Shown: piece after piece, positions 8,894 through 53,372 of the stretch | Layout: each line of letters starts with the position of its first letter | Numbering within the stretch: the first letter of the stretch is position 1 | Assembly: GCA_000004985.1 (NCBI GenBank) | Contig: GG738875.1 | From: Naegleria gruberi | Taxonomy: Eukaryota | Reading direction: 5' to 3' (one strand) | Length of the DNA stretch: 64,000 nucleotides | Program-made: the position numbers and the translations under genes | The notes under the pieces: model-generated | What the model saw: only the letters and a program-made list of their open reading frames with translations | Databases searched by the model: none | Told to the model about the DNA's origin: nothing

Positions 8894-10531
8894 TTAACAT
8901 TTATTTAAAAAGTTGGCCAAAGTACCACGAAGAGCATTATTTGTTCGTGAATTTCCGTGCATCTGTCTCCACACACTGAGAGAGGCTGGAGCAGACTTGT
9001 CAACTTCAACTCTTTGAGGAATGGCCAATTGTTGCTTCCATTCGGCTACTTCAACACTCTTTGGGATGGCTTTGGAAAGAGATTCAACCTGCTTCTTGAG
9101 CATTGCATTTTCTTGCATAATTCTTTGATTTTCCAATTCCTTTTGGTGGAGTAAATTTAAAAGTTCTTCTTCGCGAGATGTAGACTTTTTCAACAAGTCT
9201 TGTTCCTCAATCTTCTTTGTTTCCAAAAGTTGTTGAATAGTTTTGAATGTCTCCTTTAAACTTGTAACTTCTTCAGTTCTTGCTTGGACAATCTTTTCCA
9301 AATCTGAACGCAATGAGAGTTCAGTTTGAAGAGCTGTTTGTTGTTCCTTTTGCACCAATTCTAATTTTGTTGCAAAATCCAATTCCTTTTCATTCAAAAT
9401 ACGTTTCCATGAAATTTCATCATGGTCATGTTGCTCCTTCAATTGGGTCTTCATTGATTCAATAATTGCCTCAAATTCAGCACTCTTCTTTTCCAATGAT
9501 TGACGAAGTGGAGTAATTACACTAACTTCAATTTGATCCAATTCTTCTCTTGTCTTCTTCATTTTGGCCTTGAAGTGTTGAGTTCTATCAATCAAAATAT
9601 CAATCTTCTTGGTGGAAGAAGTCTTGGATTCTTCCAATTGCTTTTCAAAATTGGTCTTTAATGAGACCAATTCTTCTTGAAGCTTGGAAAGCTGTTCCAA
9701 TGCTGCATTGTGTTCTTCAGTCAAGGTTTGAACACGTTTTTTCAACTTTTGATTGGACTTTTTCAATTTGACATTCGAAGTCTTGGCTTGATATTCCTCT
9801 TCTTCATCCAAAGAAGCAAGTTTAGCTTTTTGTGCACTCTGATAAGCTTCACTGCTACAATCATCAGAGGATGTAGATGAAGCCAAAGAGAGTGAGCTTC
9901 TTGGTGAGGTTAATGTTGTACTGTATTTTGAACGTGCAGAGAGGAGAATTACAGTAGCTCTATCTTCCAACTCCTCACAATCACTGAATACTTCTTGATC
10001 GGAGTTGTGTTTTCCTTTAAGGTCCTTAGGAGTGGAAGGAGATTTTTCAAGGGCAATTTGAGGAACAGCTGTTTCCTTAGTTTGTTTCTTCTTCTTTGGT
10101 GTATTCTTAGTCTTTGTTGAGGTAGTAGTTTGTGGAGATTTAACTGTTGTTGATGCATTATTACTAGTTGTGGTGGATGAAGACATTTGCAACTTTTCCT
10201 CCAGTGAAATAAGGTGAAGACCTGTTGGCTTTTTAGCAGCAAATGATGAAGTGGATGTATTGTTGTTATTATTGGTAGTTGTAGTAGTATATTGATTATG
10301 GCTCGATGTAGTGTTATTATTAGTCTTGTTATTAGTAGATGTGGAAGTAGATTTGTTCATTGGTAAAGTCTTCTTATTATTGACTTGATTCTTCTTCTCT
10401 TGAACAAATGCTGACTTGGCAAGGGAGGAAAGAGATGTTTCGGCAAGGAAAGAGGCAGGAATTGTAAAAACTGGCTTATTTACATTGGTAGTAGTAGTAG
10501 AATTGGATGTTGTAGAATTTGTCTTTATCAT
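8894..10531 (-). CDS. Coiled-coil protein with Thr/Asn/Ser-rich low-complexity N-terminus (545 aa)
   Basis: Long ORF. The C-terminal half has heptad-like Lys/Glu/Leu-rich sequence. Function unknown. Confidence 0.45.
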   Translation of the reverse strand: MIKTNSTTSNSTTTTNVNKPVFTIPASFLAETSLSSLAKSAFVQEKKNQVNNKKTLPMNKSTSTSTNNKTNNNTTSSHNQYTTTTTNNNNNTSTSSFAAKKPTGLHLISLEEKLQMSSSTTTSNNASTTVKSPQTTTSTKTKNTPKKKKQTKETAVPQIALEKSPSTPKDLKGKHNSDQEVFSDCEELEDRATVILLSARSKYSTTLTSPRSSLSLASSTSSDDCSSEAYQSAQKAKLASLDEEEEYQAKTSNVKLKKSNQKLKKRVQTLTEEHNAALEQLSKLQEELVSLKTNFEKQLEESKTSSTKKIDILIDRTQHFKAKMKKTREELDQIEVSVITPLRQSLEKKSAEFEAIIESMKTQLKEQHDHDEISWKRILNEKELDFATKLELVQKEQQTALQTELSLRSDLEKIVQARTEEVTSLKETFKTIQQLLETKKIEEQDLLKKSTSREEELLNLLHQKELENQRIMQENAMLKKQVESLSKAIPKSVEVAEWKQQLAIPQRVEVDKSAPASLSVWRQMHGNSRTNNALRGTLANFLNKC

Positions 10532-16850: not shown

Positions 16851-18701
16851 TTAGAAACCACCTTGATTTCCAAAGACTTGTTGAATTTGAGTATTGTAGG
16901 AATTGATTGGTCCAATCCATTGTGGCTTGTTGATGGTGAGCCAATCCCATATAATACCAGCTTCAATCTTATCAGCAAAATTAATACTAGTGTGGAAACC
17001 ATCGAAAGCTTCAATCAACAAGTATGGTGGAATGTTATTCTTTGCACAATAGTCAAGCATCTTATCGAGTGGGAAATCCATGTAACCCAATTCAATATTT
17101 TGCAATTTGACAGTTTCAGAAACCTTTTTAGCAACCATGGATAAATCTTGAGCTCTTTGTGAGGCAGCATTTCTACGAGTGGCATTGGATGTGAGCCATG
17201 TTGGACATGGATTAGCACCAGAGCAAGAAAGGAAGTTATAGAGACCTTCATAAGTACAACCCAATGGGTGAGTTCTGTTGTGCATTTGATTGAACAAGAT
17301 TCTACCATCAACCAATCCCATCAATAATAATTTGCTGTTTGGTGGAGATCTCTTATCGAGAACATTCAAACCACTAATAAGTCTTTCATAATATTGATCT
17401 GTAGTGGTCATTTCACTCAATTCATCCTTACAGACATCATTACCAATATAAGCCAAAAATCCAAGATATGGCAATGAATTTGGAGTCATGGAAAGTCCAG
17501 GAATTTGATCACTCAAAAAGTTTTCAATCTTACCACCATTGTGGCCAACATTTTGATATTGTCTATGCATACACAAGTTACGTTGTCTCATTCTCAAATA
17601 GACAGAACCATCATCACCAATCAAGGAAGAATTCCAACCAGTTGACCAACACTTTTGTGGCCAATCAAATTCATCTTCCAAAACAAATCCTAAATCAGAC
17701 ATGTTATCAACATCCAACCATTCAGGTGGAACGTGGAAACCACTTGAAGCACTATCACCAAACATGATAACTTGTCTAGTAGTAACATTACAGTACAAAC
17801 TTTCATAGGACTCGCCAGTCTTTGGTTCAGTTCCATAAACTCCATTACAGTTCATATCTCTGTTATTTTGATTGTTATCATAGATACCTGGCTTGATTCC
17901 AGGATTCTTGTCATCACAATCCATACCTCTCCAATCAGCATTTCTAAGCAACATGTGACTGCCAGGGAACAAGTCGTGATCATCATCACCAGCTGTTGGA
18001 ACAACAGGTTGACCTCTCACATTCAAACCACCAGCTTTAGCAGGTGCCATCTTTTTCTTTAACAAGACCAAAGAAACAATCCAAGCTCTCAAAAGGGCAA
18101 CAACTTGTGCCTTCTTTTCCTTTTGTAATTGAGCAGCATCCTTGTTATTTTCCTTTTGAGCTAACTTTTCAAATTTGGCAGTGACCATATCCTTGACAAG
18201 TTGATTCATCATTTCCTTGTTCTTTGTAAGTGCTGGAAGTTGGAGAGCATTCAATTGTGCCAAAACTTCACCCAATTCTCTCTTTGCATTTTCAGCATAT
18301 TCAACACTGTATTTTCCAGTGAGTGTGCTATTATCCAATCTACATCCATTACAACTGGCAAATTTCATAGCGACACAAATTTCAGTTGCAGGATAATCCT
18401 TCAACAACATATTTACAATCACATCAAGAGCTCCCTTGACCAACAAGTCACAAACCAACTTGTATTTCGAATAGTGTTCAGGAATGGCATCACAAATCTT
18501 TTCAGCAAACAAGTCGAGTCTTGGATTTTCCTTATGGATTTCATTTTCAACCATTGTCAACAAGACATTGCAAATGGTACAATCAAAATTGTTTGCCCTC
18601 AGTTTATCAGCAGCTTCCGAACTGATTTTAACATTTCCAAAACCTGCAACTTGATGATATGAAATGACAAGAATCATCATGATCATTGCCAAAATACACA
18701 T
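16851..18701 (-). CDS. Acyloxyacyl hydrolase-like protein: signal peptide + saposin-B-type domain + GDSL-family lipase domain (616 aa)
   Basis: Six-Cys saposin pattern (CTICNVLL...ICDAIP...CDLLV...CVAMKFASC) followed by a GDSx lipase block (VIMFGDSASSGFH). This is the AOAH domain order. Confidence 0.55.
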   Translation of the reverse strand: MCILAMIMMILVISYHQVAGFGNVKISSEAADKLRANNFDCTICNVLLTMVENEIHKENPRLDLFAEKICDAIPEHYSKYKLVCDLLVKGALDVIVNMLLKDYPATEICVAMKFASCNGCRLDNSTLTGKYSVEYAENAKRELGEVLAQLNALQLPALTKNKEMMNQLVKDMVTAKFEKLAQKENNKDAAQLQKEKKAQVVALLRAWIVSLVLLKKKMAPAKAGGLNVRGQPVVPTAGDDDHDLFPGSHMLLRNADWRGMDCDDKNPGIKPGIYDNNQNNRDMNCNGVYGTEPKTGESYESLYCNVTTRQVIMFGDSASSGFHVPPEWLDVDNMSDLGFVLEDEFDWPQKCWSTGWNSSLIGDDGSVYLRMRQRNLCMHRQYQNVGHNGGKIENFLSDQIPGLSMTPNSLPYLGFLAYIGNDVCKDELSEMTTTDQYYERLISGLNVLDKRSPPNSKLLLMGLVDGRILFNQMHNRTHPLGCTYEGLYNFLSCSGANPCPTWLTSNATRRNAASQRAQDLSMVAKKVSETVKLQNIELGYMDFPLDKMLDYCAKNNIPPYLLIEAFDGFHTSINFADKIEAGIIWDWLTINKPQWIGPINSYNTQIQQVFGNQGGF

Positions 18702-19034: not shown

Positions 19035-22000
19035 TTACATGACAAGGCAGTTCAATAATCCTTGCCTTTGAGGTGGCTGTGGTTGCGGATTGTTTGGTTG
19101 TGGTTGCTGTAGTTGTTGTGGTTGTGGAGGAATAATGAGAGGCCTTATTCTGGCTGGCACTGGTTGAGGGTTTGGTTGCGGAATTAATTGAAGAGGTATT
19201 TGATTATTCACAGGAGGATTTACTTGTCTTGGACGAATAATTTCAGGAGGAACATCAAAAGTAAGGCAAGAACCAGCTCTAAAATGTGCATAAGTTGCTT
19301 GTCCTGTTGCAAATCCTTTCAAACATAACCAACAAAAATGTTGTCCGCAATAACAACAAGCTAAAATAAGTGAACAAGTGAGCTCACTAATAAATAGATT
19401 CAAAAACTTACTCATATGATTGCATCCTTCACTCTTTTCAATTCGTTGGGAACAACTTGGGCATGGCTTTGTTTTGGTATTCATCCACTCTCTTGTTTTG
19501 TCCTCGTCTCCACATTTTTGTCCCTTGTGTGATTTCTTTTCACATTCCTTACAAAAACTCAAGTTACAGGTTTGGCAAATAATGTCTGAACCATCAATTC
19601 GACAAACAGATCCACAATTTTTTGGGCAATACTTGTATGATTCTGGATTTTCTAGCAAAAAGTCCTCTAATGCTTTTGTATATGTCTTCTCTTGTTTGGT
19701 TTCGAGGTACATCAATATTTCAGAAATGGATAAATCCATTTCACAACATGAACAAACAAAGCTATTTGGATTTTGAATTTGAAAACGAAAACAATCTTTG
19801 CAAATCTCGTGGTTACATCCTATTGTTCTGAAAGGATTTGTCATTCTCTCAAAACAAATTGGGCAATCGTCATCAGTGTGTTCAACGTTATGGTTTTGTT
19901 CATAATTTTCCATCAATTCAGTCACATATTGTTGAATAGCATGTTGGTCCTTTTCGTTACCATCCACTATTAATTCCTTGGTTTTGACATTTAAAGAAAT
20001 ATCACAATTAGCAAACTGTGTTTTAAGCTCTTGGAATGGTTTTCCTGCATTTCCTGTTATGGATTTTAAATATTTGAGATGAATCGTTAAAGTTTTAGAG
20101 TGACCTTCCACAAGCTGCATGATTTCCTCTTTGGCGTTGTGTTTGTCATCAATCAATCCAAAAATTTCTATTGTTCTGGTCTTGGAGTTTATAGAAATAA
20201 ATACTTGATTCCTGTTTTCAATTTGGTCAAGTTGCTTTCTTTTTCTAGAAGCGTATTGGATTGTTTGATGAGTGAGGTGTAATGATAATGGCTTCACAAG
20301 GGCAACAACATTCTTTTTGGCTTCATTAAAATCTTCCAGGTTAGCAGATTGAATCGAAATTTCAGTTTTGTAATTTTCTGCATTTTTGCGCGAAGTATTA
20401 TATTTGATTTTTGCCTTACAGTTATCAATCAAGCATTGTAATTCAAATTTCAAAAGTTCAGTTACTTCTGTTGGTACTGTAACTGAATCTCTGTGAATAG
20501 AATTGGCCCATAAAATTGCTCCCATAAATTTTGTGGAATTTAGAGCTTGTGCAGCGCTTTTAGCATCTTTTTGATCAGTAAAACAAACCAAAGCTTCTCC
20601 AAATTGTTTATACGTATCTATATTCAAAATGTCCAGAAATTCAAGACTCTGGAATGATTGAACTTTAGAAAGTAATACTCCTTGGATTAAATCATTCTCT
20701 ACTACAACTGGACGTCTTAGAATAGAGACGAAATGATAATCAATATGTCTATTATCCAGTAATACTTTAACAAATTTTGCATCGATATGGTCGTAAATAT
20801 TGCGTATCTCAAGAGTGTCCTTGTTCTTCGTTTTTTTAATCTGGAATCTGAGTCCAGCTGGTCCTAATTGTGATGAAAATATTCTATCATGCGTAATATT
20901 ATTAATAGTGGCAGAATTATTCCCATTTTTAAAACCAATCAAGCAATATCCGTTATTTGGGCCTATATTCCATTTTAATCGAACCAACGCAGATTCATTA
21001 CTACTTTTGGTGTTAAATAGAACAGGAGTTAATTTGTAAGTTTCTTTGAATTTGTGATAAACTGTAGTTGCAACAGAAAAGTTTGTAAATACTACGTAGC
21101 CACTAGCAAATGAATCATTAGGTAAAGAGGAATAAACACGTGCATCAAGTGTATGGTATGGTAGAAACAAGTTTCTTAAAGTATCGTCATCACAACCTAA
21201 TGGTAGATTATCGACCTGAAGTTTAGTAAACTCGTTTGGGAATATTAATCCTTTCACTTTACAACCACTTGATACCATGATTCGTAATCCACTCGAATCA
21301 TCATCCAATCCATTTTCAATTTCCAATTCTAAAATTTGAGATAAAGCCCTCTTTTTTGCTATTTCTATTACTTCCTTAATTTGAGAAATAATGTTAAATC
21401 TTTCGCCTTGATCACAGTAGACCTTAATTGAAGAATCTGTTGAATCAATTTCTATTACATGCCCTAACTGTCTTTCAACTTCTTCAATGAATTCTGTGTT
21501 TCTAAATTTTAAATCTTCACTAACTATTGAAGGTAATTTCACTCTGAGTTCTTCTTTAACTTTACTGACAATCATATTGGTTTCTAGTTGTGGATAAAAA
21601 TGAAGTATTTCCTTCAAATCAATTGGTGTAATATTCCTCATATAGAGCTTGTCAGTTCTAACTAGATCTGAAAATAGTATGAAAGGTTTAGGATCTCCCA
21701 AAAATTGATGAGATGAGTTATGTATAAATGCTCGTTGCTTTAGAGAGGGAATGTAATACACTTTTGTCATATTTGGCAAATATCCGTCAAAATAGGCAAG
21801 GTTTTGATATTGGCTTTCAATTATACTTTCTTTCAAAAGTTGTTCTTTTGAAATACATTCCTTTCTAATTATTCTTTTCTTTTTAAAGAAATTGATTTTG
21901 TTCTTAAAATCCTTCAAGTTCATTTCAGCATTCTTTAGGTATTGAACATTAATATTATTTTTTAAGGACCATTCCTCTTTGTTGGACTGTTGTGAATACT

Positions 22001-24245
22001 CTTGAAATATTTGTAACAGAGAAAACAAATCTCCACCATCATTATGAAATAAACTCTTGCTCAACAATTTTGCTTGTGATTTTTTAAACAAAATATCAGA
22101 TATACTCATCATTGAAACAATAATAACCATTAAATCAGCTACACCCTTCAAATTTGCTTGAATAATCATTCTAGACAGTGTTGGTTCTGTCTGTAACTCA
22201 CAAGCCATAGTGCCAAACTCAGTGATGACACCTTCATGAACAAAGCCAAGCTTTTCCAGAGATCCAACCTCTTTAGTGATTCTTTCTATGGATGGCATTT
22301 CTAATAGTTCAAAAGCGTTTATATCGGTAACACCACATGATAATATTTGCAAAATAGATATACCAAGATGACTTCTCATAATTTCAGCTTCTGAAGCTAA
22401 TTTCATTCTCTGATATTCTACTTGTGGATATAATCTATAACATATTCCAGAACTATTTCTTCCTACTCTTCCTTTCCTTTGCAGAGCACAGGATTGAGAG
22501 ATGGAAACAGTTTTAAGTATTGACATATTCCTGTCATTATCATAGAATTTTTGTCTCATTAATCCAGAGTCTATAACTATTCTTAATGAAGGAATAGTAA
22601 TGGATGTTTCTGCAACATTTGTCGAAAATATAATCTTTCTCATAGACTTTGATTGATCGAAAATCTTTTTCAATTCAAAACTATCAATTTTTCCATGTAG
22701 AGCAATTATTTGGCAAGACGTTCCAAGGCTCTTTTTAGCCATTTTGCAACATTTGGTAACATCTTCTCTAGATGCAAGAAAAACCAGAATATCTCCTTCA
22801 TGTAGATTATTCTTGACAATGTCAGTAACCTTTCTAGTTGCCTGTTCACAAGTATTTGCTTCTCTTGAATGAGAGAAATACTCCACAACAGGGTAACTTT
22901 GATGTTCTAGTTTCTTGATTGGGCAGTTATCAAAAAACATTGAAAACAAATCTTCATTGATTGTTGCAGAGGATATCAAGACTTTTAAGGGATTGTTCAA
23001 AGCTCTTCTTCTCTTTACACAATCCTTTAATAATGAAAGTAGAATATCGGTATAAATTGATCTTTCATGCGCTTCATCAACAATAATAATAGAATAACTT
23101 AATAGGAGTTGATCATTCTGATACTCATTCAATAAACAACGATCTGTGACAAAATTAATAGATACTCTGTTGTTCCTTTTCCTTTTCTCGCCAAGCTTGC
23201 ATGAAACAATAGATTTATCTCTCAATTCTTCAGAAACTCTATTAGCAAGAGTGATACAGGTCAATTTTCTGGGTTGTGTGCATGCTATTGATTTATAGCC
23301 ATGTTCTAAAAGATACTGAGGAATTTGGGTACTCTTTCCAGCACCAGTAGAACAACTACAAATAACAACATCATTCTGGTCCAATAATTCCAAAATTTCG
23401 TTCCTTATCGAATAAATTGGGAGTCTGTTGGTGGTAATCCTTCCACATTCAATCTCTGTGGCCTTTAGCTTTTGCACCATACTGGTGGTTGATTGGAGAA
23501 TTAGCTTCATTCTTGCGGAGAATGTTTTGCATTGATTCTCTATCATTTTCAAATCATTAATTAATATTTGTACCTTTTCCAAGTACTTTTGATAGTCAAA
23601 CGTTTTAACAAGATGATGTTTGCTTTTGTTAATTTCCTCTTCCTTTTCCTTTAGCACATTCAAAGCCTGTACTATCTTGGTATCAATCAAATTCTTTAAT
23701 TTTTCATTACTATCTTGTTTGACGACACGTGTAGTTTTTTGCTGTTGTGGTTGTATAGTACTACTATTTTGTGCTGCATTTTCCTGTTGTTTTAATTTTG
23801 GTTGTTGAACAAGCTTTGCTTTCTTATTTTTCTTTTTTTTTAAATTATTTTCTAAAAGTTGTTTTGGTGGGTTTTCTTGTGAAACATATTGTTGTTTGTT
23901 TTCAACTTGGTTAATGATGGTTGGTGAAGACAATTTGCTTGTGAATGCTCCATTTTGTTGGTGATTTGAAGTTGCAAACTTTTTTCTTCTCTCCTCCTTT
24001 TTGATTTGATTGGAAGGAACTAGAGTTGATGTGTTTTTGCTGAGTTTGCTATTATTTGGATTATTCGATGATGTTATTTTGGAGGATGATGGAGTAGTGT
24101 CCTCATTATCATTGGTACTTTGTTTGATTGGTTCTGTAACTACTTTGTCTATTACCTTGACAAACAACTTTCGTTGTTGCGGTTTCTTCTTCTTCTTGAT
24201 TGCTGGATCATGCTCCACATTCACAGGGCTTGGTTTTGTATCCAT
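19035..24245 (-). CDS. Giant DEAH-box helicase fused to a C-terminal RING-between-RING (RBR) E3 ligase module; join(19035..19361,19422..24245), 60-nt intron inside RING2
   Basis: Helicase motifs I (GAGKST), II (DEAH in IIVDEAHERS), III (SAT) and VI (QRKGRVGR) are present. The C-terminus has RING1 (CPICFERM...CNHEICKDC), an IBR (CPKNCGSVC...CQTCNLSFCKEC) and RING2. RING2 reads CPSCSQRIEKSEGCNHMTCCYCGQHFCWLC only after removing the GTAAGT..AG intron; the ORF track reads through it. Confidence 0.65.
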   Translation of the reverse strand: MDTKPSPVNVEHDPAIKKKKKPQQRKLFVKVIDKVVTEPIKQSTNDNEDTTPSSSKITSSNNPNNSKLSKNTSTLVPSNQIKKEERRKKFATSNHQQNGAFTSKLSSPTIINQVENKQQYVSQENPPKQLLENNLKKKKNKKAKLVQQPKLKQQENAAQNSSTIQPQQQKTTRVVKQDSNEKLKNLIDTKIVQALNVLKEKEEEINKSKHHLVKTFDYQKYLEKVQILINDLKMIENQCKTFSARMKLILQSTTSMVQKLKATEIECGRITTNRLPIYSIRNEILELLDQNDVVICSCSTGAGKSTQIPQYLLEHGYKSIACTQPRKLTCITLANRVSEELRDKSIVSCKLGEKRKRNNRVSINFVTDRCLLNEYQNDQLLLSYSIIIVDEAHERSIYTDILLSLLKDCVKRRRALNNPLKVLISSATINEDLFSMFFDNCPIKKLEHQSYPVVEYFSHSREANTCEQATRKVTDIVKNNLHEGDILVFLASREDVTKCCKMAKKSLGTSCQIIALHGKIDSFELKKIFDQSKSMRKIIFSTNVAETSITIPSLRIVIDSGLMRQKFYDNDRNMSILKTVSISQSCALQRKGRVGRNSSGICYRLYPQVEYQRMKLASEAEIMRSHLGISILQILSCGVTDINAFELLEMPSIERITKEVGSLEKLGFVHEGVITEFGTMACELQTEPTLSRMIIQANLKGVADLMVIIVSMMSISDILFKKSQAKLLSKSLFHNDGGDLFSLLQIFQEYSQQSNKEEWSLKNNINVQYLKNAEMNLKDFKNKINFFKKKRIIRKECISKEQLLKESIIESQYQNLAYFDGYLPNMTKVYYIPSLKQRAFIHNSSHQFLGDPKPFILFSDLVRTDKLYMRNITPIDLKEILHFYPQLETNMIVSKVKEELRVKLPSIVSEDLKFRNTEFIEEVERQLGHVIEIDSTDSSIKVYCDQGERFNIISQIKEVIEIAKKRALSQILELEIENGLDDDSSGLRIMVSSGCKVKGLIFPNEFTKLQVDNLPLGCDDDTLRNLFLPYHTLDARVYSSLPNDSFASGYVVFTNFSVATTVYHKFKETYKLTPVLFNTKSSNESALVRLKWNIGPNNGYCLIGFKNGNNSATINNITHDRIFSSQLGPAGLRFQIKKTKNKDTLEIRNIYDHIDAKFVKVLLDNRHIDYHFVSILRRPVVVENDLIQGVLLSKVQSFQSLEFLDILNIDTYKQFGEALVCFTDQKDAKSAAQALNSTKFMGAILWANSIHRDSVTVPTEVTELLKFELQCLIDNCKAKIKYNTSRKNAENYKTEISIQSANLEDFNEAKKNVVALVKPLSLHLTHQTIQYASRKRKQLDQIENRNQVFISINSKTRTIEIFGLIDDKHNAKEEIMQLVEGHSKTLTIHLKYLKSITGNAGKPFQELKTQFANCDISLNVKTKELIVDGNEKDQHAIQQYVTELMENYEQNHNVEHTDDDCPICFERMTNPFRTIGCNHEICKDCFRFQIQNPNSFVCSCCEMDLSISEILMYLETKQEKTYTKALEDFLLENPESYKYCPKNCGSVCRIDGSDIICQTCNLSFCKECEKKSHKGQKCGDEDKTREWMNTKTKPCPSCSQRIEKSEGCNHMSKFLNLFISELTCSLILACCYCGQHFCWLCLKGFATGQATYAHFRAGSCLTFDVPPEIIRPRQVNPPVNNQIPLQLIPQPNPQPVPARIRPLIIPPQPQQLQQPQPNNPQPQPPQRQGLLNCLVM

Positions 24246-24425: not shown

Positions 24426-24896
24426 ATGGGGAACGTACAAGAACCAGCTAAACCTGCCGTTGCAAAACAACAAATAATTACTGGTTGTTTATCGGAATTC
24501 ATGAAAACCGTTCCTATCGAGATTAAACTTTATACATTTTCATATGTTCCGATGGAGGATTTTCCCAAATTACTGCTCATTACCAAACCACTAAAGAATT
24601 CAATACTAAGGAATGATGAAATATTTGTATTTTATTATAAAGATTTTAGAGAAAGGGCACTAATTGAAATATCAAAGCTAAATGGAACAATTAACATGGG
24701 GCCAAGATTGGATATAGAAGTTAGCGATGAAATGTTTAATCCATCTCTTCCTCTTAGTATTGATCAAGTTCAAACCAAATCGAATAGTCAGAAGATATCG
24801 AAAAATTACAAAAAATTACAACAAGTTGTACAGAATCACATTGCATTGAGAAATAGTATTGAGAGATTGACTGTTAGTGTAAAGGCTCCAAAGTAA
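24426..24896 (+). CDS. Small F-box-like protein (156 aa); paralog of 13369..13833
   Basis: MGNVQEP... N-terminus with the same core as the gene at 13369 (VPIEIKLYTFSYVPMEDFPKLLLITKPL...FVFYYKDF). Confidence 0.4.
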   Translation: MGNVQEPAKPAVAKQQIITGCLSEFMKTVPIEIKLYTFSYVPMEDFPKLLLITKPLKNSILRNDEIFVFYYKDFRERALIEISKLNGTINMGPRLDIEVSDEMFNPSLPLSIDQVQTKSNSQKISKNYKKLQQVVQNHIALRNSIERLTVSVKAPK

Positions 24897-25256: not shown

Positions 25257-26963
25257 ATGATATCAACAAAAAGTGAATCATCACACTTACAAGACATAAC
25301 AATTGAACAACCATTGAAAAACAAGACAAACCTTCCTTGTTACATTATCAAGAATTTTCTCACACCGAAAGAATGTTCGGAATTTATTGAAAAAGCTGTG
25401 AAAATTGGATTTGATTTGGCCTCTCATGATTACCCACCTTCCTACAGAAATAATGAGAGAATTATAATGGATGACGAAGAGTTGGCAGAGAAAATGACCA
25501 AGAAATTGAAACCAATGCTTGATAGTTTGAATTTAGTGGAATTTGAAAAGGATGGATTGGAATGTGAATTGAAAAGTGTCAATTCTAGATTTAGATTGTG
25601 TAGATATCAAGAAGGACAAGAATTTAGAATTCATCAAGATGGTGTTCATTACAAATCAAAGTTTGTCAAGTCAATTTTGACATTTATGATTTATTTGAAT
25701 GAAGAATTTGATAATGGACATACAATTTTCTTCAAGTCTGGACCTTCCTCAAACCCTCCAGAAGAAATGGGAAAATACAAACCTCAATGTGGTGATTTGA
25801 TAGTATTTGATCATGAATTGTGGCATTCTGGAGAAATTGTCAATAATGGTATCAAATATGTCATGAGGAGTGATATCATTTATGATACTATCCCTATTAG
25901 TTTTGGAAATAATTCAATCGGAACAATGGAATCATTGGAAAATTCGAACAATTGGAATAATTCTCACAATGGATATGTTTGGAAATTAATCAAGGTTGGA
26001 AAAGATGATTCCTTAATTGCTAGCGGAGGAAGAGACACCACTATAAATATTTTCAACGAATCACTGCAAATCCAATTCAAACTTGAGGGTCACCAAAAAT
26101 CAGTGCTTGGCTTATCGAAAATGGCAAATAATCAAATGGTTTCCATTTCCAGAGACCGATCAATTAAGATTTGGGACCTGGAAACGAGAGAATGTATTTT
26201 CACCAAAGAGCAAGCTCACAATCATACAGGATTATGTGTAGAAGCGGATCCTTTTGATTCTTCAATAATTGCTTCTGGCTCTGCTGATTGTATCATCAAA
26301 CTTTGGAAATTTGTTGATGGAAAATTAGAATTGTCCAAACAATTTAACGGCCACAATGGATGGATTTGGTCTTTGAAATGGATTACAATTGAAGGAGAGA
26401 GGATGCTCTTGTCTGCATCTGAGGATGGATCCATACGAGTCTGGAATAGTGAAACTGGCTCGTGTCACATTATTGATCAATTACAAAATCCTCTTAGGTG
26501 CCTTACTACTTTTAATTATCCAAATTCACAAATGGACACCATTATTTGTCTTGGAGACAATGAAGGCAATCTCTATCTCTATTATGTAAAAGGGGGTTTT
26601 AGTAATTTTAGTACGAAACGAACAGAATTCAAGAACTTGCACAGGGCCTCAATAAGAACTGTTAAATTTATTAGTTCTCACATGATTGTAACAGGCTCTG
26701 AAGACTATTCTGTAATGTTATGGAAACTGAAGCATGAGCTTTCCTCAATACCTCAACTACATCATGTCTATACCTTCAATCACAATAATTTTGTCACAGA
26801 CTGTCTCTCACAATTTCACAATGAACAACAAGCACAAGAGGAGGATAATCAATTCGCCTCCTTCTTCACTTCCTCCTATGATGGCGCCATTAAGAAACAC
26901 CAAGTATCACTCTCATCGACAAGTCTTTCTTTAACTTTGCTTGGCATGATTGGTACCAATTAA
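25257..26963 (+). CDS. Prolyl-4-hydroxylase-like 2OG-Fe(II) oxygenase domain fused to C-terminal WD40 repeats (568 aa)
   Basis: N-terminal half has the P4Hc-type iron-binding triad: HxD (RIHQDG), distal His (ELWHSGEIV) and the 2OG Arg (KYVMRSD). C-terminal half has four or more WD repeats (SISRDRSIKIWDL, SGSADCIIKLWKF, SASEDGSIRVWN, TGSEDYSVMLWKL). Confidence 0.55.
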   Translation: MISTKSESSHLQDITIEQPLKNKTNLPCYIIKNFLTPKECSEFIEKAVKIGFDLASHDYPPSYRNNERIIMDDEELAEKMTKKLKPMLDSLNLVEFEKDGLECELKSVNSRFRLCRYQEGQEFRIHQDGVHYKSKFVKSILTFMIYLNEEFDNGHTIFFKSGPSSNPPEEMGKYKPQCGDLIVFDHELWHSGEIVNNGIKYVMRSDIIYDTIPISFGNNSIGTMESLENSNNWNNSHNGYVWKLIKVGKDDSLIASGGRDTTINIFNESLQIQFKLEGHQKSVLGLSKMANNQMVSISRDRSIKIWDLETRECIFTKEQAHNHTGLCVEADPFDSSIIASGSADCIIKLWKFVDGKLELSKQFNGHNGWIWSLKWITIEGERMLLSASEDGSIRVWNSETGSCHIIDQLQNPLRCLTTFNYPNSQMDTIICLGDNEGNLYLYYVKGGFSNFSTKRTEFKNLHRASIRTVKFISSHMIVTGSEDYSVMLWKLKHELSSIPQLHHVYTFNHNNFVTDCLSQFHNEQQAQEEDNQFASFFTSSYDGAIKKHQVSLSSTSLSLTLLGMIGTN

Positions 26964-39168: not shown

Positions 39169-41328
39169 ATGAGCGAAAACTTTTGGGAACAACGTAAACT
39201 CGAAATTGAGCAAACTAGGCAAGCTGAACTCGAAAAGAAGGCTGCTGAACAAAAGGAAAAGAAGAAGAGTCAAGTAGTAGAAAAAACTGAAAAGAAGAAG
39301 GAAAAGCAACCAAAGAAGGTTGAACAACAAAAGGAACAAACCCAACAACAACCAAACGGTGCTGCTGCTGCTTCTGAACAAAAAGAAAAGAAAAAGAAGA
39401 ACTTTAAAAAGAACAAGGAAGCCTCTCAACCATCAACTTCCCAACCAGCCACTACTGAAGCTTCTGCTCAAGATGATTTCCAAACTGTAGAAAGAAAGAC
39501 TGGTGGAAGAAGACAATTCCGTGGTGCTAACAAGAGAAGTAACAATAAGAAGAAGGAAAATGGCGAAAAGAAGAAGGAAAATAAGGAAAATAAGGAACAA
39601 CAACCAAAGAAGGAAGAAAAGACAACAACTGAACAAGGACAACAACAAGTTGTTGTTCAACCTGTTCAAATTAAGGTCTTTTCTACCACTGAATCAACAC
39701 CTGTTCAAGGTTCTGACTCTTGGGTTTCTCTCTTGAGAGGTAATCAACCAGAAAGTACCTCCACTACTCAACAACAACAACCAACTTCTAATGGTGCTGC
39801 TACTTCTACCAAGAAGAGTAAGCCAAAATCCGAAAAGAAGACTGTTGTTGCCAAGCCAGTTACTGCTGAAAAGACAACAACTGAAGCAAAGAACAAGCCA
39901 CAAAAGAATTATGAATCCGGAAAGAACTTGTTGAGATCAACTGAAGTTGAAGTTGATCAAGCATTGTTGGACGAAGTTGGTGTTTTTATTCAACCAAGAG
40001 GAATGACCAATATTAACAATTCTTGTTATATGAATGCTGTTTTGCAAACTTTGGTCTCCCTTCCACAATTCTATCATGTAATGAAGAGACTCGGAAAGAT
40101 TTCTCTCGACAATGAAGAATATCCACTTACCAACAAGTTTGTCCGTTTGGTTAACGAATATCAAACCATGAAGACTCACCGTCCACAAAGTGGAAAGGAA
40201 GGTGAAAAGAAAGATAGAAAATACTTTATCAATGCTTCTACTGAACATTTAGTTCCAAGTTATATTGTTGATTATATTCAACAATCATCAACCAACTTGG
40301 AAGATGCCTTCCTCTTGGGTACTCAACATGATGCTCACGAATTCTTGAATCACATCTTGCAAAGACTTCACGAAGAATTGAAGAAGACTGAAGCTACTTT
40401 GGGTAGAAAGTCTCCTTCTGCTTCAAAGAAGAAGAGCAATAAGAAGCAAGAAGCAACTTCTGAACAAGCAGAACAACCATCCACTGAAACTACCAGTGAA
40501 GAATGGAAGGAAGTTGGAAAGAAGAATAAGGCCAATCCAATGCGTGAACATGAAATGGGTGATAGCAGTGTTATTGCTCGTACTTTCGCTGGTAAGATGA
40601 AGAGCTTTGTTCAAAAGCAAGGTGAAAGCAAGGGAAGTTCTGTTGTTGAACCATTCTTTAGCTTGCATTTGCCAATCAAGGATGAAAACATCAAGGGTGT
40701 TAAATTCGCCTTGAGAGAAATGACCAAGGAAGAAAATGTTAGTGATAAGAATGCCAAGTCTTCTATTTATCAACTTCCAAAGGTTCTCCTCTTACATTTG
40801 AGAAGATTCGACTTTTCTTCAACTGAAGGAGTTCAAAAGATTTCTAAGCGTATTAGATTTGATTATGAATTGAATATTGACGAAAAGGTTGTTCCAAACG
40901 TCAAGGCCATTTCTGGAAGACCAAGTTTGAAATATAGACTTGCTAGTGTCATTTGTCATCATGGAAAGGATGCTACTAGTGGACATTATAGTACTTATAT
41001 TCAACATGGATGCGGAAAGTGGATTCATATTGATGATACTAAGGTAACTGTTGTTAGTTTGCAACATGTTCTAGATCAACAAGCTTACATTTTGACCTAT
41101 GTTCAAGATGATAACCAAGAACACTATAAATTATACTCGGAAGGAAGCTCATCGTCTCCTTTGTTCAGTGAATCAAGTGAACAAAATGGTGAAAAGAAGA
41201 AGGACCACAAGAAGAAGGATAAGAAGGACAAGAAGGAAAAGAAATCTAAACCTGCCACAACTACTACCACTACTACTACTACCCCAACTACTACCGAGAC
41301 AAAGACAGAAGCTAAGACCGATGTGTAG
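39169..41328 (+). CDS. Ubiquitin carboxyl-terminal hydrolase (USP/UBP family, peptidase C19), 719 aa, with Lys/Glu-rich N-terminus
   Basis: Cys box GMTNINNSCYMNAVLQTL. Central QQDAHEFLNHIL block. C-terminal His box (CHHGKDATSGHYSTYIQHGCGKWIHIDDTKV). Confidence 0.7.
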   Translation: MSENFWEQRKLEIEQTRQAELEKKAAEQKEKKKSQVVEKTEKKKEKQPKKVEQQKEQTQQQPNGAAAASEQKEKKKKNFKKNKEASQPSTSQPATTEASAQDDFQTVERKTGGRRQFRGANKRSNNKKKENGEKKKENKENKEQQPKKEEKTTTEQGQQQVVVQPVQIKVFSTTESTPVQGSDSWVSLLRGNQPESTSTTQQQQPTSNGAATSTKKSKPKSEKKTVVAKPVTAEKTTTEAKNKPQKNYESGKNLLRSTEVEVDQALLDEVGVFIQPRGMTNINNSCYMNAVLQTLVSLPQFYHVMKRLGKISLDNEEYPLTNKFVRLVNEYQTMKTHRPQSGKEGEKKDRKYFINASTEHLVPSYIVDYIQQSSTNLEDAFLLGTQHDAHEFLNHILQRLHEELKKTEATLGRKSPSASKKKSNKKQEATSEQAEQPSTETTSEEWKEVGKKNKANPMREHEMGDSSVIARTFAGKMKSFVQKQGESKGSSVVEPFFSLHLPIKDENIKGVKFALREMTKEENVSDKNAKSSIYQLPKVLLLHLRRFDFSSTEGVQKISKRIRFDYELNIDEKVVPNVKAISGRPSLKYRLASVICHHGKDATSGHYSTYIQHGCGKWIHIDDTKVTVVSLQHVLDQQAYILTYVQDDNQEHYKLYSEGSSSSPLFSESSEQNGEKKKDHKKKDKKDKKEKKSKPATTTTTTTTTPTTTETKTEAKTDV

Positions 41329-48561: not shown

Positions 48562-51500
48562 TTAACACCAAATCATTTGAACGAGCAAGATGACAATGCA
48601 ATAGAATGAAAGATGGGTTGCATTTGCAGATGCTAACTTGAAACTTCCCTGAGGAGTGGTAATGTTTGAATTTTGAACCTTTACAGATTGACTTGGTTTT
48701 GGGCCAGGTTTTGGAGAAGGTTTAGGAGAAGGACTTGAAGATTGTTGAGGAATTGGAGAAGGTTTAGGGGAAGGTTGTGGAGAAGGAACAGGTACCATTG
48801 AAGAACAGTTGAGTCCTGTGAAACCTGCAAAACAAGTGCAAGTATCTGGTTTGGAACAATTTCCATGTCCAGAACAAACCAAGCTGTCACTTTCAGTCTT
48901 ACCGTAACAAACAACTTGTTCACACTCTTTACCTGTATAACCAACATTACAAGTGCATTGATCATGGCCACTACAGCTTCCTCTTCCACCACATACAGAA
49001 ATAGAGTTTGAGGGTATACTAAAGCAGGTAGTCAATGAACAATCTACACCAAACCAATTTTCAGGGCAAGAAACTGATTTATGCTCACAGTTACTGCCAT
49101 AATAACCATCTTTACATGTACAATTATTAAATGAAGAACAAGTTCCATTACCTGAGCATACATTTGAGTTAACTTTTGATATACCATAACAATCATACAT
49201 TTCACAATTGGATCCATAATATCCAATTTCACAAGTACAATTGTTTGGAGAAGCACATTTTCCTTTTCCAGAACAAACAGTATTATTCATAAAATGTACT
49301 CCATAACAATTAAATTGATTGCAACTGCTTCCAAAATATTCATCAATGCAAGAACAGTTATTTGGAGATGGACACGATCCATGTGATGAACATACATTAG
49401 TGTCTGTTTTTGATACTCCATAACAATTGAAATTTTCACAATTATTACCAAAATAATCTTGTTGACAGGTGCAATTATTCAAAGAAGAGCAAACACCATT
49501 ACCTGAACACACATTAGAGTTGGATTTTGCAAAACCATTACAATCATACATTTCACAATTGCTGCCATAGTAACCTTGTTGACAGGTGCAGTTATTGGAT
49601 GAAACACAAGTTCCATGACTTGAACAAACACTTGAATTCAATTTAGAAATATTATCACAATCATATATTTCACAATTACTGCCATAGTAACCTTGTTGGC
49701 AAGTACAATTATTGAATGAAGAACAAACTCCATGAGCTGAGCATACATTTGAGTTAACTTTTGATATACCATAACAATCATACATTTCACAATTGGATCC
49801 ATAATATCCAATTTCACATGTACAATTATTTGGAGAAGCACATTTTCCTTTTCCAGAACACACAGAAGCATTACTAAACTTAACATTGAAACACTTGAAA
49901 TCTTCACAATTAATTCCAAAATATTCATCAATGCAAGAACAGTTATTTGGAGATAGACATGATCCATGTGATGAACATACATTAGTGTCTGTTTTTGATA
50001 CTCCATAACAATTGAAAATTTCACAATTATTACCATAATAATCTTGTTGACAGGTGCAATTATCGAATGAAGTGCAAACACCATGACCTGAACATGTATT
50101 TGAGTTGTTTTTGGATAAGCCATAACAATTATACATTTCACAATTGGATCCATAATAACCAATTTCACAAGTGCAATTATTTGGAGAAGCACATTTTCCT
50201 TTTCCAGAACACACAGAAGCATTACTAAACTTAACATTGAAACACTTGAACTCTTCACAATCATTACCAAAATAGCCTTCAAAACAAGAGCAATTATTTG
50301 GAGAGTTGCAAGTACCATGAGAAGAACACACCATTGTGTTTTTAGAACTAATACCGTTACAGACCACGTCTTGACAATACGAACCAGAGTATCCAGCATT
50401 ACAAGTGCAGTTATTCATACCAACACAAGCTCCTACCGATGAACATACTGTGCTAGAGTTGAAAGGAATAGAGTTACAATAAAAGTATTGACAAGTTTCA
50501 CCATAATAACCACTTGCACAAGAACAATTATTTGGAGATGCACAACTTCCATGGGATGAGCAAACGTTTGATTGATTATTCAATAAACCATAGCAATAAA
50601 ACTCCCCACAATTTGGACCAAAGTAATTGGTAGAGCACCAAGGAGTTAGGGTTCTAATCAGATTCATATCATTAATATAAATTTCACCAGTTGAACTAAT
50701 GGCAACTCCAGTAGGATTAATTAATCTAACACTTGTTGCAAAACCATCACTAATGAAATTAGTGGATCCTATAATTCCATTTCCTGCAATCGTTGAAATA
50801 ATACCAGTTGTTGTTATTCTACGAATTACATAATTGGAAGTATCAGCAATATAAACTTCTCCACTTGAACTAATGGCAATTCCATTTGGATAATTTAATT
50901 GAGCACTTGTTGCCAAACCACCATCACCACTATATCCAGAAAGTCCAGTTCCTGCAATTGTGGTGATATTTCCATCTGTTGTGATTTTACGAATTCTATT
51001 GTTAATTCTATCAGCAATATAAACTTCTCCACTTGAACTAATGGCAATTCCAGTAGGACTATTTAAATGAGCACTTGTTGCCAAACCACCATCGCCACCA
51101 TATGCTGCAAGTCCAGTTCCTGCAATTGTTGAAATAATACCACCTGTTGAGATTTTACGAATTCTATGATTGTTGGTGTCAGCAATATAAATTTCACCAT
51201 TTGCAGAAAACTCAAAAGTAGTAGCAGAAATATAAGCTGCAGTTGCAGCTATTCCGTCGCCTATACCACCAACTACAGTAAAAATGTTTCCTGATGTAAT
51301 TTTACGAATTCTATGATTGTTACTATCGGCAATATAAATATCACTAGTTGAGCTAATGGCAACTCCAGTAGGAAAATATATCTTGGCACTTGTTGCCAAA
51401 CCACCATCGCCACCATATGTAACAACTCCAGTTCCTGCAACGGTTGAAATAATACCAGATGTAGTAATTTTACGAATTCTATGATTGGCTCTATCGGCAA

Positions 51501-53372
51501 CATAAATTTCACCAGTTGAACTAATGGCAACTCCAGAGGGAGTGTTTAACTTGGCACTTGTTGCCAAGCCACCATCACCACTATATCCATTAGTTCCAGT
51601 TCCTGCAATTGTTGAAATAATACCAGCTGTGGAAATTTTACGAATTCTATGATTACCATAATCAGCAATATAAATTTCGCCAGTGGAACCAATGGCAATT
51701 CCAGTAGGAACGCTTAGTTTTGCACTTGTTGCCAAGCCACCATCACCACTATATCCATAAGTTCCAGTTCCTGCAATTGTTGAAATAATACCAGATGTTG
51801 TTACTTTACGAATCACATTATTGTTAGTATCAACAATATACATCTCACCAGTTGAACTAATTGCAATTCCAGAGGGAGTGTTTAATTGAGAACTGGTTGC
51901 CAAACCACCGTCACCATTATAACCAGAAAAAGTATTACCGTTTCCTGCAATTCTAGTAGTAAAAGATGTTACCATGTCTAGGTAATTATTACTATAAAGC
52001 ACATATAATACATTGTTGTAATATTTGGCAAATGTTGGGTTGTTGAATGATTGTACAACAGTTGTAGTACCAATTACGCCAGCAATAGTAGAAAGTGTTT
52101 TGGTGGAAAGGTCTATTTGTCTTACTTGATTAGTAGAATCCGCGAAAACAAGATATCCATTACTAAGGGTAGGGGAATTCATTGGTGAAATTATAGCCTT
52201 GGAAGCAGGAATATTATTACCAAAAGAAGATGTTCCAGCAAAAGTTGAAATAATACCAGATGTTGTCACTTTACGAATTCTACTATTGTCAGTATCAACA
52301 ATATATACTTCATCACTTGAACTGATTGCAATTCCATATGGATTGCTTAATTGAGCACTTGTTGCCAAACCACCATCACCATTGTATCCATCTCCATTCC
52401 TGCAAAAGTTGAAATAATACCAGATGTTGTCACTTTACGAATCACATTATTGTAAGTATCAGCAATATAAATTTCATCACTTGAACTGATTGCAATTCCA
52501 TACGGATTGTATAATTGAGCACTTGTTGCCAAATCCCATCACCATCATATCCTGCATTTCCAGTTCCTGCAAAAGTTGAAATAATACCAGATGTTGTCAC
52601 TTTACGAATTATATTATTGTTAGTATCAGCAATATACATTTCACCACTTGAACTGATTGCAATTCCATAAGGATTATATAATGAAGCACTTGTTGCCAAA
52701 CCACCATCACCACATATCCTGCATTTCCATTCCTGCAACAGTTGAGATAATACCAGATGTTGTTACTTTACGAATTCTCTGATTGTAAGTGTCAGCAATA
52801 TAAATTTCATCACTTGAACTGATTGCAATTCCAAAAGGATGATCTAATGAAGCACTTGTTGCCAAACCATCATCACCATCATATCCTGCACTTCCAGTTC
52901 CTGCAAAAGTAGAAATAATACCAGATGTTGTTACTTTACGAATTACATTATTGTTAGTATCAGCAATATACATATCACCAATTGAACTGATTGCAATTCC
53001 ATAAGGACTATATAGTGAAGCACTTATTGCCAAACCACCATCACCTACATATCCAACATTACCATTTCCTGCAACAGTTGAAATGGTTGAAATATTTCCA
53101 TATGTTGTCACTTTACGAATTCTCTGATTACCAGTATCAACAATATAAATTTCACCACTTGGACTGATTGCAACTCCATAAGGACCATATAACGGAGCAC
53201 TTGCTGGTGCTAATCCATCACCAATTAAAGAACCACCACCTGCAATAGCGGTGATATTATAAAAGGGTTGGCTTTGTGCATGCGTGATAACAGCGAGAAA
53301 GCAGCAGAACACAAATGTACCTAGTAATGTTATTAATTTCATTTTTTTTGGCAAATAACAGCATTGTGTCAC
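48562..53372 (-). CDS. Giant secreted NHL-repeat / EGF-repeat surface protein with predicted GPI-anchor signal. The N-terminal 52347..53372 region is broken by 3-4 frameshifts relative to the intact 48562..52368 frame
   Basis: Signal peptide [24 protein letters not shown]. About 14 tandem NHL units of ~57 aa (..[27 protein letters not shown]..GDGGLATSA). About 20 tenascin-type EGF units ([18 protein letters not shown]). Pro/Ser/Lys stalk and a hydrophobic C-terminus. 1-nt indels against the repeat consensus sit near 52380-52420, 52530-52545 and 52712-52733. Confidence 0.55.

What the first reader, a model, noticed from the sequence alone, without database searches (positions are those of the whole stretch)
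19035..24245. 5.2-kb gene fusing a DEAH-box helicase core to a C-terminal RING1-IBR-RING2 (RBR) ubiquitin ligase
A single 1736-aa ORF carries complete helicase motifs I, II, III and VI and a full RBR module. RING2 is interrupted by a 60-nt in-frame intron, and the ORF track therefore misreads it as SKFLNLFISELTCSLILACC. Helicase-RBR fusions are rare; Arabidopsis helicase-RBR proteins of this kind are the ones I recall. The protein may couple RNA remodelling to ubiquitylation. The central ~600 aa contains repeated segments whose function is unassigned.
Basis: partly seen in the sequence, partly recalled or inferred. Interest (0 to 1): 0.5.

Follow-up and report, generated by a model that had tools for sequence, protein, structure and literature searches.

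The report
Naegleria helicase-RBR ubiquitin ligase gene
This is a real Naegleria gruberi gene that joins an RNA helicase, a string of RNA-binding domains and a ubiquitin ligase in one protein; the protein family is old, widespread and already described, so the only new point is that the public gene model for it is wrong.

Summary
The 1736-codon ORF at 19035..24245 (-) is real. It carries a complete DEAH/RHA helicase cassette (RecA1, RecA2, WH/ratchet, OB), then an array of one KH-like, three RRM-like and three KH domains, then RING1-IBR-RING2. Splicing it restores GCNHMTCCYCGQHFCWLC, which aligns without gaps to ARIH1/2 and raises the Pfam RING2 score from 19.5 to 42.6 bits.

The window is Naegleria gruberi. 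The protein belongs to the known "Helicase / Plant I" RBR subfamily (Arabidopsis DEAH11/DEAH12). This subfamily is described as one of three ancient RBR subfamilies and has many full-length homologs in molluscs, echinoderms, cnidarians, crustaceans, Trichoplax, plants and other Heterolobosea. The fusion is therefore not rare.

The public N. gruberi model (1145 aa) removes the whole helicase core as a 1677-nt "intron" and truncates RING2. Both look like annotation errors.

The mechanism is inferred, not shown: an RNA-bound DEAH motor that places or regulates a Cys-thioester RBR ligase. The family has not been characterised biochemically. Verdict: an ordinary new member of a known kind, of low interest.

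The parts
19035..24245 (-). Whole gene: start codon at 24245..24243, stop codon at 19037..19035. Two exons, 1719-aa product after splicing.
19412..24245 (-). Exon 1 (codons 1-1611 plus the first base of codon 1612)
19361..19411 (-). 51-nt intron in RING2 (GTAAGT...TTATTTTAG). It is in frame and stop-free, which is why the raw ORF reads through it.
19035..19360 (-). Exon 2: second half of RING2, the P/Q-rich tail and the stop codon
23691..24245 (-). N-terminal K/N/Q/S-rich low-complexity region (aa 1-185). No Pfam hit. It lacks the CCCH zinc fingers seen in the other heterolobosean homologs.
23436..23690 (-). Region before the helicase (aa 186-270). No Pfam hit and not modelled here. It aligns to a weakly conserved stretch of the family consensus.
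22950..23402 (-). RecA1 (Pfam DEAD, aa 282-432) with motifs I (CSTGAGKST), Ia (TQPRK), II (DEAH) and III (SAT)
22455..22832 (-). RecA2 (Pfam Helicase_C, aa 472-597) with motifs V (TNVAETS) and VI (QRKGRVGR)
22026..22388 (-). Winged-helix plus ratchet (HA2) region, aa ~620-740 (Pfam HA2_C 687-740)
21588..21833 (-). OB fold of DEAH helicases (OB_NTP_bind, aa 805-886)
21336..21527 (-). KH-like alpha-alpha-beta-beta-alpha unit (aa ~907-970)
   Evidence: AF2 secondary structure, pLDDT 71-83
21021..21332 (-). RRM-like domain 1 with an N-terminal beta extension. It aligns with Pfam RBD_DEAH11 of the plant protein (aa ~972-1075).
20715..20990 (-). RRM-like domain 2, aligns with Pfam RRM_DEAH11 (aa ~1086-1177)
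20472..20696 (-). RRM 3 (aa ~1184-1258). The best Pfam RRM_1 stretch is 1210-1243.
19893..20471 (-). Three tandem KH domains (aa ~1259-1323, 1326-1389, 1394-1451). The third has a GXXG loop (GNAG). They align with Pfam KH_DEAH11_1st, KH_DEAH11_2nd and KH_DEAH11.
19743..19865 (-). RING1, C3HC4 (C1461, C1464, C1477, H1479, C1482, C1485, C1498, C1500/1501)
19512..19682 (-). IBR domain (aa 1522-1578)
19306..19475 (-). RING2 (Rcat), split by the intron: CPSC...EGC(1608)NHM | TCCYCGQHFCWLC. Cys1608 aligns with the catalytic Cys position of ARIH1/2.
19038..19253 (-). C-terminal P/Q-rich low-complexity tail

Best explanation
Shown here. A single two-exon Naegleria gruberi gene encodes a 1719-aa member of the Helicase / Plant I (DEAH11/DEAH12-like) subfamily of RBR ubiquitin ligases. 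Its domain order is: low-complexity N-terminus; DEAH/RHA helicase cassette (RecA1, RecA2, WH, ratchet, OB); one KH-like unit; three RRM-like domains; three KH domains; RING1-IBR-RING2; P/Q-rich tail.

Inferred from what is established for the two parent families. The DEAH cassette binds single-stranded RNA and uses NTP hydrolysis to move 3'->5' or to remodel an RNP, as Prp22/DHX8, Prp43 and DHX36 do. The RRM/KH array adds RNA affinity or selectivity. RING1 recruits an E2~ubiquitin. Ubiquitin passes to Cys1608 of RING2 as a thioester and then to a substrate held on or near the bound RNA.

RBR ligases are normally auto-inhibited, so the most likely coupling is that RNA engagement or ATPase cycling releases or positions the RBR module. 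The protein would then ubiquitylate RNA-associated proteins. The biological process is unknown.
For: One ORF: 1736 uninterrupted codons, with a composition-based chance of about 1e-57.

Domains: Pfam hits above cut-off for DEAD, Helicase_C, HA2_C, OB_NTP_bind, RRM_1 and IBR.

Helicase: the region matches DHX8/Prp22 chains end to end (query 24-636 of 650, E = 8e-90), then DHX16, DHX15 and Prp16. All helicase motifs are present, and 145 of 179 columns that are >=90% conserved in 43 homologs are kept.

RBR: the spliced module aligns without a gap in RING2 to ARIH2 (E = 2e-12) and ARIH1, including the GCNHM catalytic-Cys context. Pfam IBR_1 reaches 42.6 bits only with the 51-nt GT-AG splice.

Family: full-length homologs with the same order cover 80-90% of the query in Naegleria lovaniensis and N. 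fowleri, molluscs, echinoderms, crustaceans, Lingula and plants; Willaertia has a full-length member too. The family is described in PMC2904391.

Gene ends: the public N. gruberi protein shares the same start and stop, so annotators also saw one gene.
Against: There is no transcript evidence for either the splice site or the single transcription unit.

No member of this family has published helicase or E3 biochemistry in the literature I could search. The only functional paper, on cotton GbDEAH12 (PMC13407882), reports binding and inhibition of a NAC transcription factor and does not test ubiquitylation.

The Walker A first Gly is Cys (CSTGAGKST against the family's GETGSGKST), and the conserved GRxxPV reads HQSYPV, so full ATPase activity is not assured.

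The DEAH11-specific Pfam models do not reach their cut-offs on this protein (KH_DEAH11 19.9 bits against 27). The central region alone finds only 13 relatives among 1.84 billion representatives, so it is very divergent.

Coupling between helicase and ligase is pure inference.
Confidence: 0.75

Rival explanations
1. The public gene model is right. The helicase-coding stretch (21933..23609) is an intron, RING2 uses the 108-nt intron, and the real product is a 1145-aa RBR protein without a helicase.
For: The database protein P0001 (N. gruberi predicted protein) has exactly this structure. Its junctions fall on GT..AG dinucleotides and keep the frame.
Against: The supposed 1677-nt intron is stop-free in frame; from the per-codon stop frequency that is a chance of about 1e-18. 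It encodes all DEAH motifs and matches DHX8 at E = 8e-90. All full-length homologs, including three other Heterolobosea, have the helicase at this position. The 108-nt intron deletes four zinc-ligand cysteines and drops the RING2 score to 20.2 bits, below the cut-off.
Confidence: 0.03
2. The helicase cassette is a pseudo-enzyme. It serves only as an RNA- or protein-binding scaffold for an otherwise ordinary RBR ligase, with no ATP-driven step.
For: Walker A starts with Cys instead of Gly/Ala. GRxxPV is HQSYPV, and motif VI has Val where the family has Ala. The cotton homolog acts by binding a transcription factor (PMC13407882).
Against: The Lys-Ser of the GKS segment, DEAH, SAT, TNVAETS and both arginines of QRKGRVGR are intact, and 145 of 179 highly conserved family columns are kept. 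That pattern points to purifying selection on catalysis.
Confidence: 0.15
3. The intron is not removed, or is removed only sometimes. The main product then has a RING2 broken by a 17-residue insert and works as a helicase and RNA-binding protein without ligase activity.
For: The intron is in frame and stop-free, so a retained-intron mRNA would still be translated through to the normal stop codon.
Against: The donor is a perfect GTAAGT and the acceptor is a TTTTAG. Seventeen stop-free codons are not unusual by chance. The sequences on both sides of the intron keep every RING2 ligand with the exact family spacing, which would not be maintained if RING2 were unused.
Confidence: 0.05
4. The helicase and RBR halves are two adjacent genes that happen to share a reading frame.
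For: None found beyond the general possibility.
Against: There is no stop codon or intergenic-like stretch anywhere in the 5.2 kb. The RRM/KH linker region is itself folded and conserved in order. More than 100 homolog clusters have the same collinear fusion.
Confidence: 0.02

Closest known systems
Helicase / Plant I subfamily of RBR ligases (Arabidopsis DEAH11 At4g01020 and DEAH12 At5g10370; 'DEAH12, chloroplastic-like' in invertebrates)
   Same: Same collinear architecture: DEAD, Helicase_C, HA2, OB, two RRM-type domains, three KH domains, RING1, IBR, RING2. The best database hits are members of this family over 80-90% of the length. The RING2 consensus GCNHMxCxxCxxHxCWxC is identical in spacing.
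   Different: Only 25-32% identical. The DEAH11-specific Pfam models stay below their cut-offs. There is an extra KH-like unit and a third RRM. The conserved C-terminal CYxH is TYAH. The N-terminus is low-complexity, with no CCCH fingers. The P-loop starts with Cys.
Spliceosomal DEAH helicases DHX8/Prp22, DHX16/Prp2, DHX15/Prp43
   Same: The complete RecA1-RecA2-WH-ratchet-OB cassette aligns end to end (E = 8e-90 to 1e-75).
   Different: Those proteins have no RRM/KH array and no ligase module, and they work with G-patch or spliceosomal partners. Nothing here links this gene to splicing.
Ariadne RBR ligases ARIH1/ARIH2 (HHARI, TRIAD1)
   Same: RING1-IBR-RING2 aligns across the full module, including the catalytic Cys context (E = 2e-12).
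   Different: There is no Ariadne auto-inhibitory domain and no UBA-like domain. How this protein is regulated (by cullin-NEDD8 in ARIH1/2) is unknown.
MEX3C (KH-KH-RING RNA-binding E3 ligase) and ZNFX1 (SF1 RNA helicase with E3 activity; bioRxiv 10.1101/2025.10.14.682297)
   Different: The ligase and helicase classes differ: MEX3C has a plain RING, and ZNFX1 is an SF1 helicase without an RBR. They are not homologous as whole proteins.

Membership tests
DEAH/RHA helicases (SF2) | RecA1 with motifs I, Ia, II (DEAH) and III | tested here: met
   Pfam DEAD 26.7 bits (cut-off 26). Motifs found at aa 298-306, 323, 390 and 426. Caveat: Walker A begins with Cys instead of Gly.
DEAH/RHA helicases (SF2) | RecA2 with motifs V and VI | tested here: met
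   Helicase_C 45.7 bits; TNVAETS at 542 and QRKGRVGR at 589.
DEAH/RHA helicases (SF2) | C-terminal WH, ratchet (HA2) and OB domains specific to DEAH/RHA | tested here: met
   HA2_C 26.6 bits and OB_NTP_bind 39.1 bits, both above cut-off. The alignment to DHX8 runs through residue 636 of 650.
DEAH/RHA helicases (SF2) | RNA-stimulated NTPase and 3'->5' unwinding activity | not testable with these tools
   Needs recombinant protein.
RBR E3 ubiquitin ligases | RING1 with C3HC4 ligands | tested here: met
   Eight ligands lie at 1461-1501. They align to RING1 of ARIH2. On the isolated C-terminal module zf-RING_UBOX scores 28.3 bits (cut-off 25.2), against 24.5 bits on the whole protein.
RBR E3 ubiquitin ligases | IBR (C6HC) between the two RINGs | tested here: met
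   Pfam IBR 30.3 bits on the whole protein and 49.1 bits on the spliced module (cut-off 24.3).
RBR E3 ubiquitin ligases | RING2/Rcat with the catalytic Cys in a GCNHM-type context and a complete ligand set | tested here: met
   Met only after the 51-nt splice: IBR_1 42.6 bits (cut-off 27) and a gap-free RING2 alignment to ARIH1/2. Cys1608 sits at the catalytic position.
RBR E3 ubiquitin ligases | E2~Ub to Cys thioester to substrate transfer | not testable with these tools
   Needs a biochemical assay with a C1608A control.
Helicase / Plant I RBR subfamily (DEAH11/12-like) | Helicase cassette N-terminal to the RBR in one polypeptide, with full-length similarity to family members | tested here: met
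   Top hits cover 80-91% of the query and have the same Pfam order.
Helicase / Plant I RBR subfamily (DEAH11/12-like) | Central array of RBD/RRM plus three KH domains (Pfam RBD_DEAH11, RRM_DEAH11, KH_DEAH11_1st, KH_DEAH11_2nd, KH_DEAH11) | tested here: inconclusive
   By sequence, only KH_DEAH11 hits (19.9 bits, below the 27-bit cut-off). By alignment mapping and structure, all five domains are present in the same order.
Helicase / Plant I RBR subfamily (DEAH11/12-like) | RBR module groups with the Helicase subfamily in an RBR phylogeny (Marin's criterion) | not tested
   No tree was built. Membership rests on architecture and best hits.

The most novel reading that the evidence does not exclude
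The helicase-RBR family, still uncharacterised biochemically, could be an RNA-gated ubiquitin ligase. The RBR would be licensed only while the DEAH motor is engaged on particular RNAs (aberrant, structured or foreign). It would then mark the proteins on that RNP, or the nucleic acid itself, for removal. That would be an ancient RNA-surveillance or antiviral device shared by amoebae, plants and invertebrates and lost in vertebrates. The fast divergence of the RRM/KH array and the several paralogs per genome in bivalves (several Mya arenaria and Mercenaria entries) fit a conflict-driven role but do not demonstrate one.
Probability: 0.1. Interest if true: 0.6.

Novelty: new member of a known kind. 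Interest (0 to 1): 0.2.

Why it matters
The finding has little consequence beyond annotation. It corrects the Naegleria gruberi reference model, which hides the helicase and breaks RING2, so this species' member of an ancient RBR subfamily is currently recorded only as a generic RBR protein. It places a full-length member in N. gruberi, alongside those already annotated in other Heterolobosea, which is consistent with the view that the helicase-RBR fusion is ancient. The family as a whole is still a biochemical blank, with no published helicase or ligase assays, so a compact gene with a single intron from a culturable amoeba could be a convenient construct. That is a practical point and not a surprise.

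Tried and rejected
Its boundaries are not GT..AG, it removes a zinc-ligand Cys, and its RING2 score (33.4 bits) is lower than the 51-nt splice (42.6 bits).
- I looked for further introns. The only other GT[AG]AGT site, at aa 682, lies inside the conserved HA2 sequence, so it is coding.
- A search with the C-terminal 766 aa of the N. lovaniensis homolog returned nothing, not even itself. That is a tool limitation and a wasted search.
- The look-up of the public protein's contig found no record.
- The afdb50 fold library was unavailable, so no direct structural comparison with plant DEAH11 models was made.
- I looked for a second N. gruberi paralog by searching with the N. lovaniensis protein. 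None appeared among the top hits. A poorly modelled paralog scoring below the listed range cannot be excluded.
- Neighbouring genes show no functional link: HMG-box, saposin/GDSL-like, 2OG-oxygenase-WD40, cyclase, RasGEF, USP, P-type ATPase and an NHL/EGF protein.
Full report
**What is there**

The minus strand of the window carries one ORF of 1736 codons at 19035..24245. It begins at the first ATG after an in-frame stop. The window is 33% G+C, and its composition predicts a stop about every 14 codons. The chance of 1736 open codons is therefore about 1e-57. A divergent gene starts 181 nt upstream at 24426, and another minus-strand ORF ends at 18701, so the gene fills its intergenic boundaries.

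**Origin**

The database protein P0001 ('predicted protein [Naegleria gruberi]', UniRef name 'RBR-type E3 ubiquitin transferase', 1145 aa) is 100% identical to ORF residues 1-212. From residue 772 onward it is also identical, up to the RING2 intron and again after it. The window is therefore N. gruberi genomic DNA.

**Domains**

Pfam gives hits above the curated cut-offs for DEAD (282-432), Helicase_C (472-597), HA2_C (687-740), OB_NTP_bind (805-886), RRM_1 and IBR (1522-1578). RING1 hits at 1461-1501 and half a RING2 at 1591-1611 fall below the cut-offs.

The helicase region (aa 251-900) aligns end to end with solved DHX8/Prp22 chains (E = 8e-90). DHX16, DHX15/Prp43 and Prp16 follow, ahead of DHX36, DHX9 and DHX29. 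The core therefore belongs with the Prp-type DEAH helicases.

Motifs I (CSTGAGKST), Ia (TQPRK), II (DEAH), III (SAT), V (TNVAETS) and VI (QRKGRVGR) are all present. Of 179 alignment columns that are at least 90% conserved among 43 homologs, this protein keeps 145. The departures include:
- the first Gly of Walker A, which is Cys here;
- the GRxxPV motif, which reads HQSYPV;
- Ala to Val in motif VI.

**The intron**

The raw ORF reads GCNHM-SKFLNLFISELTCSLILA-CCYCGQHFCWLC. On the coding strand the DNA is CATATGA|GTAAGT...TTATTTTAG|CTTGTTGT. This is a canonical GT-AG intron of 51 nt at window 19361..19411.

Removing it joins ATG A + CT TGT, which gives ...GCNHMTCCYCGQHFCWLC... and a 1719-aa product. 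That spacing is exactly the family consensus GCNHMxCxxCxxHxCWxC. It also matches N. lovaniensis (GCNHMTCSSCNNHFCWLC), N. fowleri and a metagenomic relative (GCNHITCYYCGAHFCWLC).

The spliced RBR module aligns with ARIH2 (E = 2e-12) and ARIH1, with no gap in RING2. Cys1608 falls at the catalytic-cysteine position.

I scored four versions against the Pfam RING2 model IBR_1, whose cut-off is 27 bits:

| Version | IBR_1 score (bits) |
|---|---|
| Unspliced | 19.5 |
| 51-nt splice | 42.6 |
| 108-nt intron of the public model | 20.2 |

The length and boundaries were off by 9-10 nt. The only other strong donor-like site, at aa 682, lies in conserved HA2 sequence.

**The public model**

P0001 joins residue 212 to residue 772. 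It treats 21933..23609 (1677 nt) as an intron, using a GT at 23609 and an AG at 21933-21934. That stretch is stop-free in frame; from the stop frequency that is a chance of about 1e-18. It encodes RecA1, RecA2, the winged helix and the ratchet.

P0001 also uses the same RING2 donor with a downstream acceptor, giving a 108-nt intron at 19304..19411. This deletes CCYCGQHFCWLCLKG. Both features look like gene-prediction artefacts. The consequence is that the reference proteome records this locus as an RBR protein without a helicase.

**The central 600 residues**

A plant family member (P0103, 'DEAH11, chloroplastic-like') has this Pfam order: DEAD, Helicase_C, HA2_C, OB, RBD_DEAH11, RRM_DEAH11, KH_DEAH11_1st, KH_DEAH11_2nd, KH_DEAH11, IBR, IBR_1. 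Mapping those boundaries through a 44-sequence alignment places them on this ORF:

| Pfam domain in P0103 | ORF residues here |
|---|---|
| RBD_DEAH11 | 972-1073 |
| RRM_DEAH11 | 1093-1178 |
| KH_DEAH11_1st | 1253-1317 |
| KH_DEAH11_2nd | 1318-1386 |
| KH_DEAH11 | 1386-1448 |

An AlphaFold2 model of residues 890-1460 is confident (mean pLDDT 82.5). It shows, in order:
- a KH-like ααββα unit (~907-970);
- three βαββαβ-type units (~972-1075, 1086-1177, 1184-1258);
- three KH units (~1259-1323, 1326-1389, 1394-1451).

They are very divergent in sequence. Only KH_DEAH11 gives a DEAH11-specific hit, and it is sub-threshold (19.9 bits). A search of 1.84 billion representatives with this region alone finds 13 proteins at E <= 1e-3.

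**Family and distribution**

Nearly all of the best 120 clusters found with the full-length protein carry both helicase and IBR Pfam domains. They are 1600-2600 aa long and align over about 80-90% of the query. They come from:
- N. lovaniensis and N. fowleri;
- bivalves, gastropods and Lingula;
- echinoderms and crustaceans;
- spiders, annelids and a nemertean;
- an octocoral and Trichoplax;
- angiosperms.

Willaertia magna also has a full-length member.

[quoted passage not shown] The fusion is therefore old and widespread, not rare.

Within Heterolobosea the family evolves quickly:
- N. lovaniensis against N. fowleri: 74% identity;
- N. lovaniensis against Willaertia: 37%;
- N. lovaniensis against this gene: about 30%.

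The other heterolobosean members I inspected start with CCCH zinc fingers, which this protein lacks. No second N. gruberi paralog surfaced.

**Function**

I found no biochemical study of any family member. The one functional paper is on cotton GbDEAH12 (PMC13407882). It shows binding to, and inhibition of, the NAC072 transcription factor and does not test ligase or helicase activity.

The mechanism I commit to is therefore inferred from the parent families. A Prp-type DEAH motor, together with an RRM/KH array, engages single-stranded RNA. The C-terminal RBR takes ubiquitin from an E2 onto Cys1608 and passes it to proteins on the same RNP. RNA or ATP engagement probably relieves the auto-inhibition that is usual for RBRs.

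- Shown: the gene structure, the domain order, and intact catalytic motifs with the exceptions noted above.
- Inferred: both enzyme activities, and their coupling.

**Rivals**

- The public model being right is very unlikely.
- A catalytically dead helicase is possible, given the P-loop Cys.
- Intron retention and two separate genes have no support.

**Verdict**

This is a new, divergent and mis-annotated member of a known kind. Interest is low (0.2). The most novel reading that remains open is an RNA-gated surveillance ligase, which I put at about 0.1 probability.

Noticed in passing
window 21933..23609 and 19304..19411: The public N. gruberi protein model (P0001, 1145 aa) splices out the whole helicase core as a 1677-nt stop-free 'intron'. 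It also uses a 108-nt intron that removes four RING2 cysteines. Both appear to be annotation errors in the reference proteome.
   Followed up: yes
window 23328..23354 (aa 298-306) and 22899..22916 (aa 444-449): Walker A reads CSTGAGKST where the family has GETGSGKST, and the conserved GRxxPV reads HQSYPV. These may affect ATPase activity.
   Followed up: partly
window 23436..24245 (aa 1-270) compared with P0002, P0003 and P0004: The homologs from N. lovaniensis, N. fowleri and a metagenome begin with CCCH zinc fingers. This protein has a K/N/Q/S-rich low-complexity N-terminus instead, with no Pfam hit.
   Followed up: partly
window 16851..18701 (-): This 616-aa ORF has only sub-threshold Pfam hits, to saposin-like domains (aa 41-117) and GDSL lipase (aa 311-572). 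That layout resembles acyloxyacyl hydrolase.
   Followed up: partly
window 25257..26963 (+): 568-aa ORF that joins a 2OG-Fe(II) oxygenase domain (aa 114-203) to a WD40 beta-propeller.
   Followed up: no
window 48562..52368 (-): 1268-aa ORF with NHL repeats and many teneurin/Delta-type EGF domains. It is an animal-like extracellular architecture in an amoeboflagellate.
   Followed up: no
window 39169..41328 (+): USP/UCH-type deubiquitinase gene about 15 kb from the RBR ligase gene. There is no evidence of any functional link.
   Followed up: no
window 8894..10531 (-) and 24426..24896 (+): ORFs of 545 aa and 156 aa with no significant Pfam match (the only hit is a chance-level E = 0.22). The second is the divergently transcribed neighbour of the helicase-RBR gene.
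   Followed up: no
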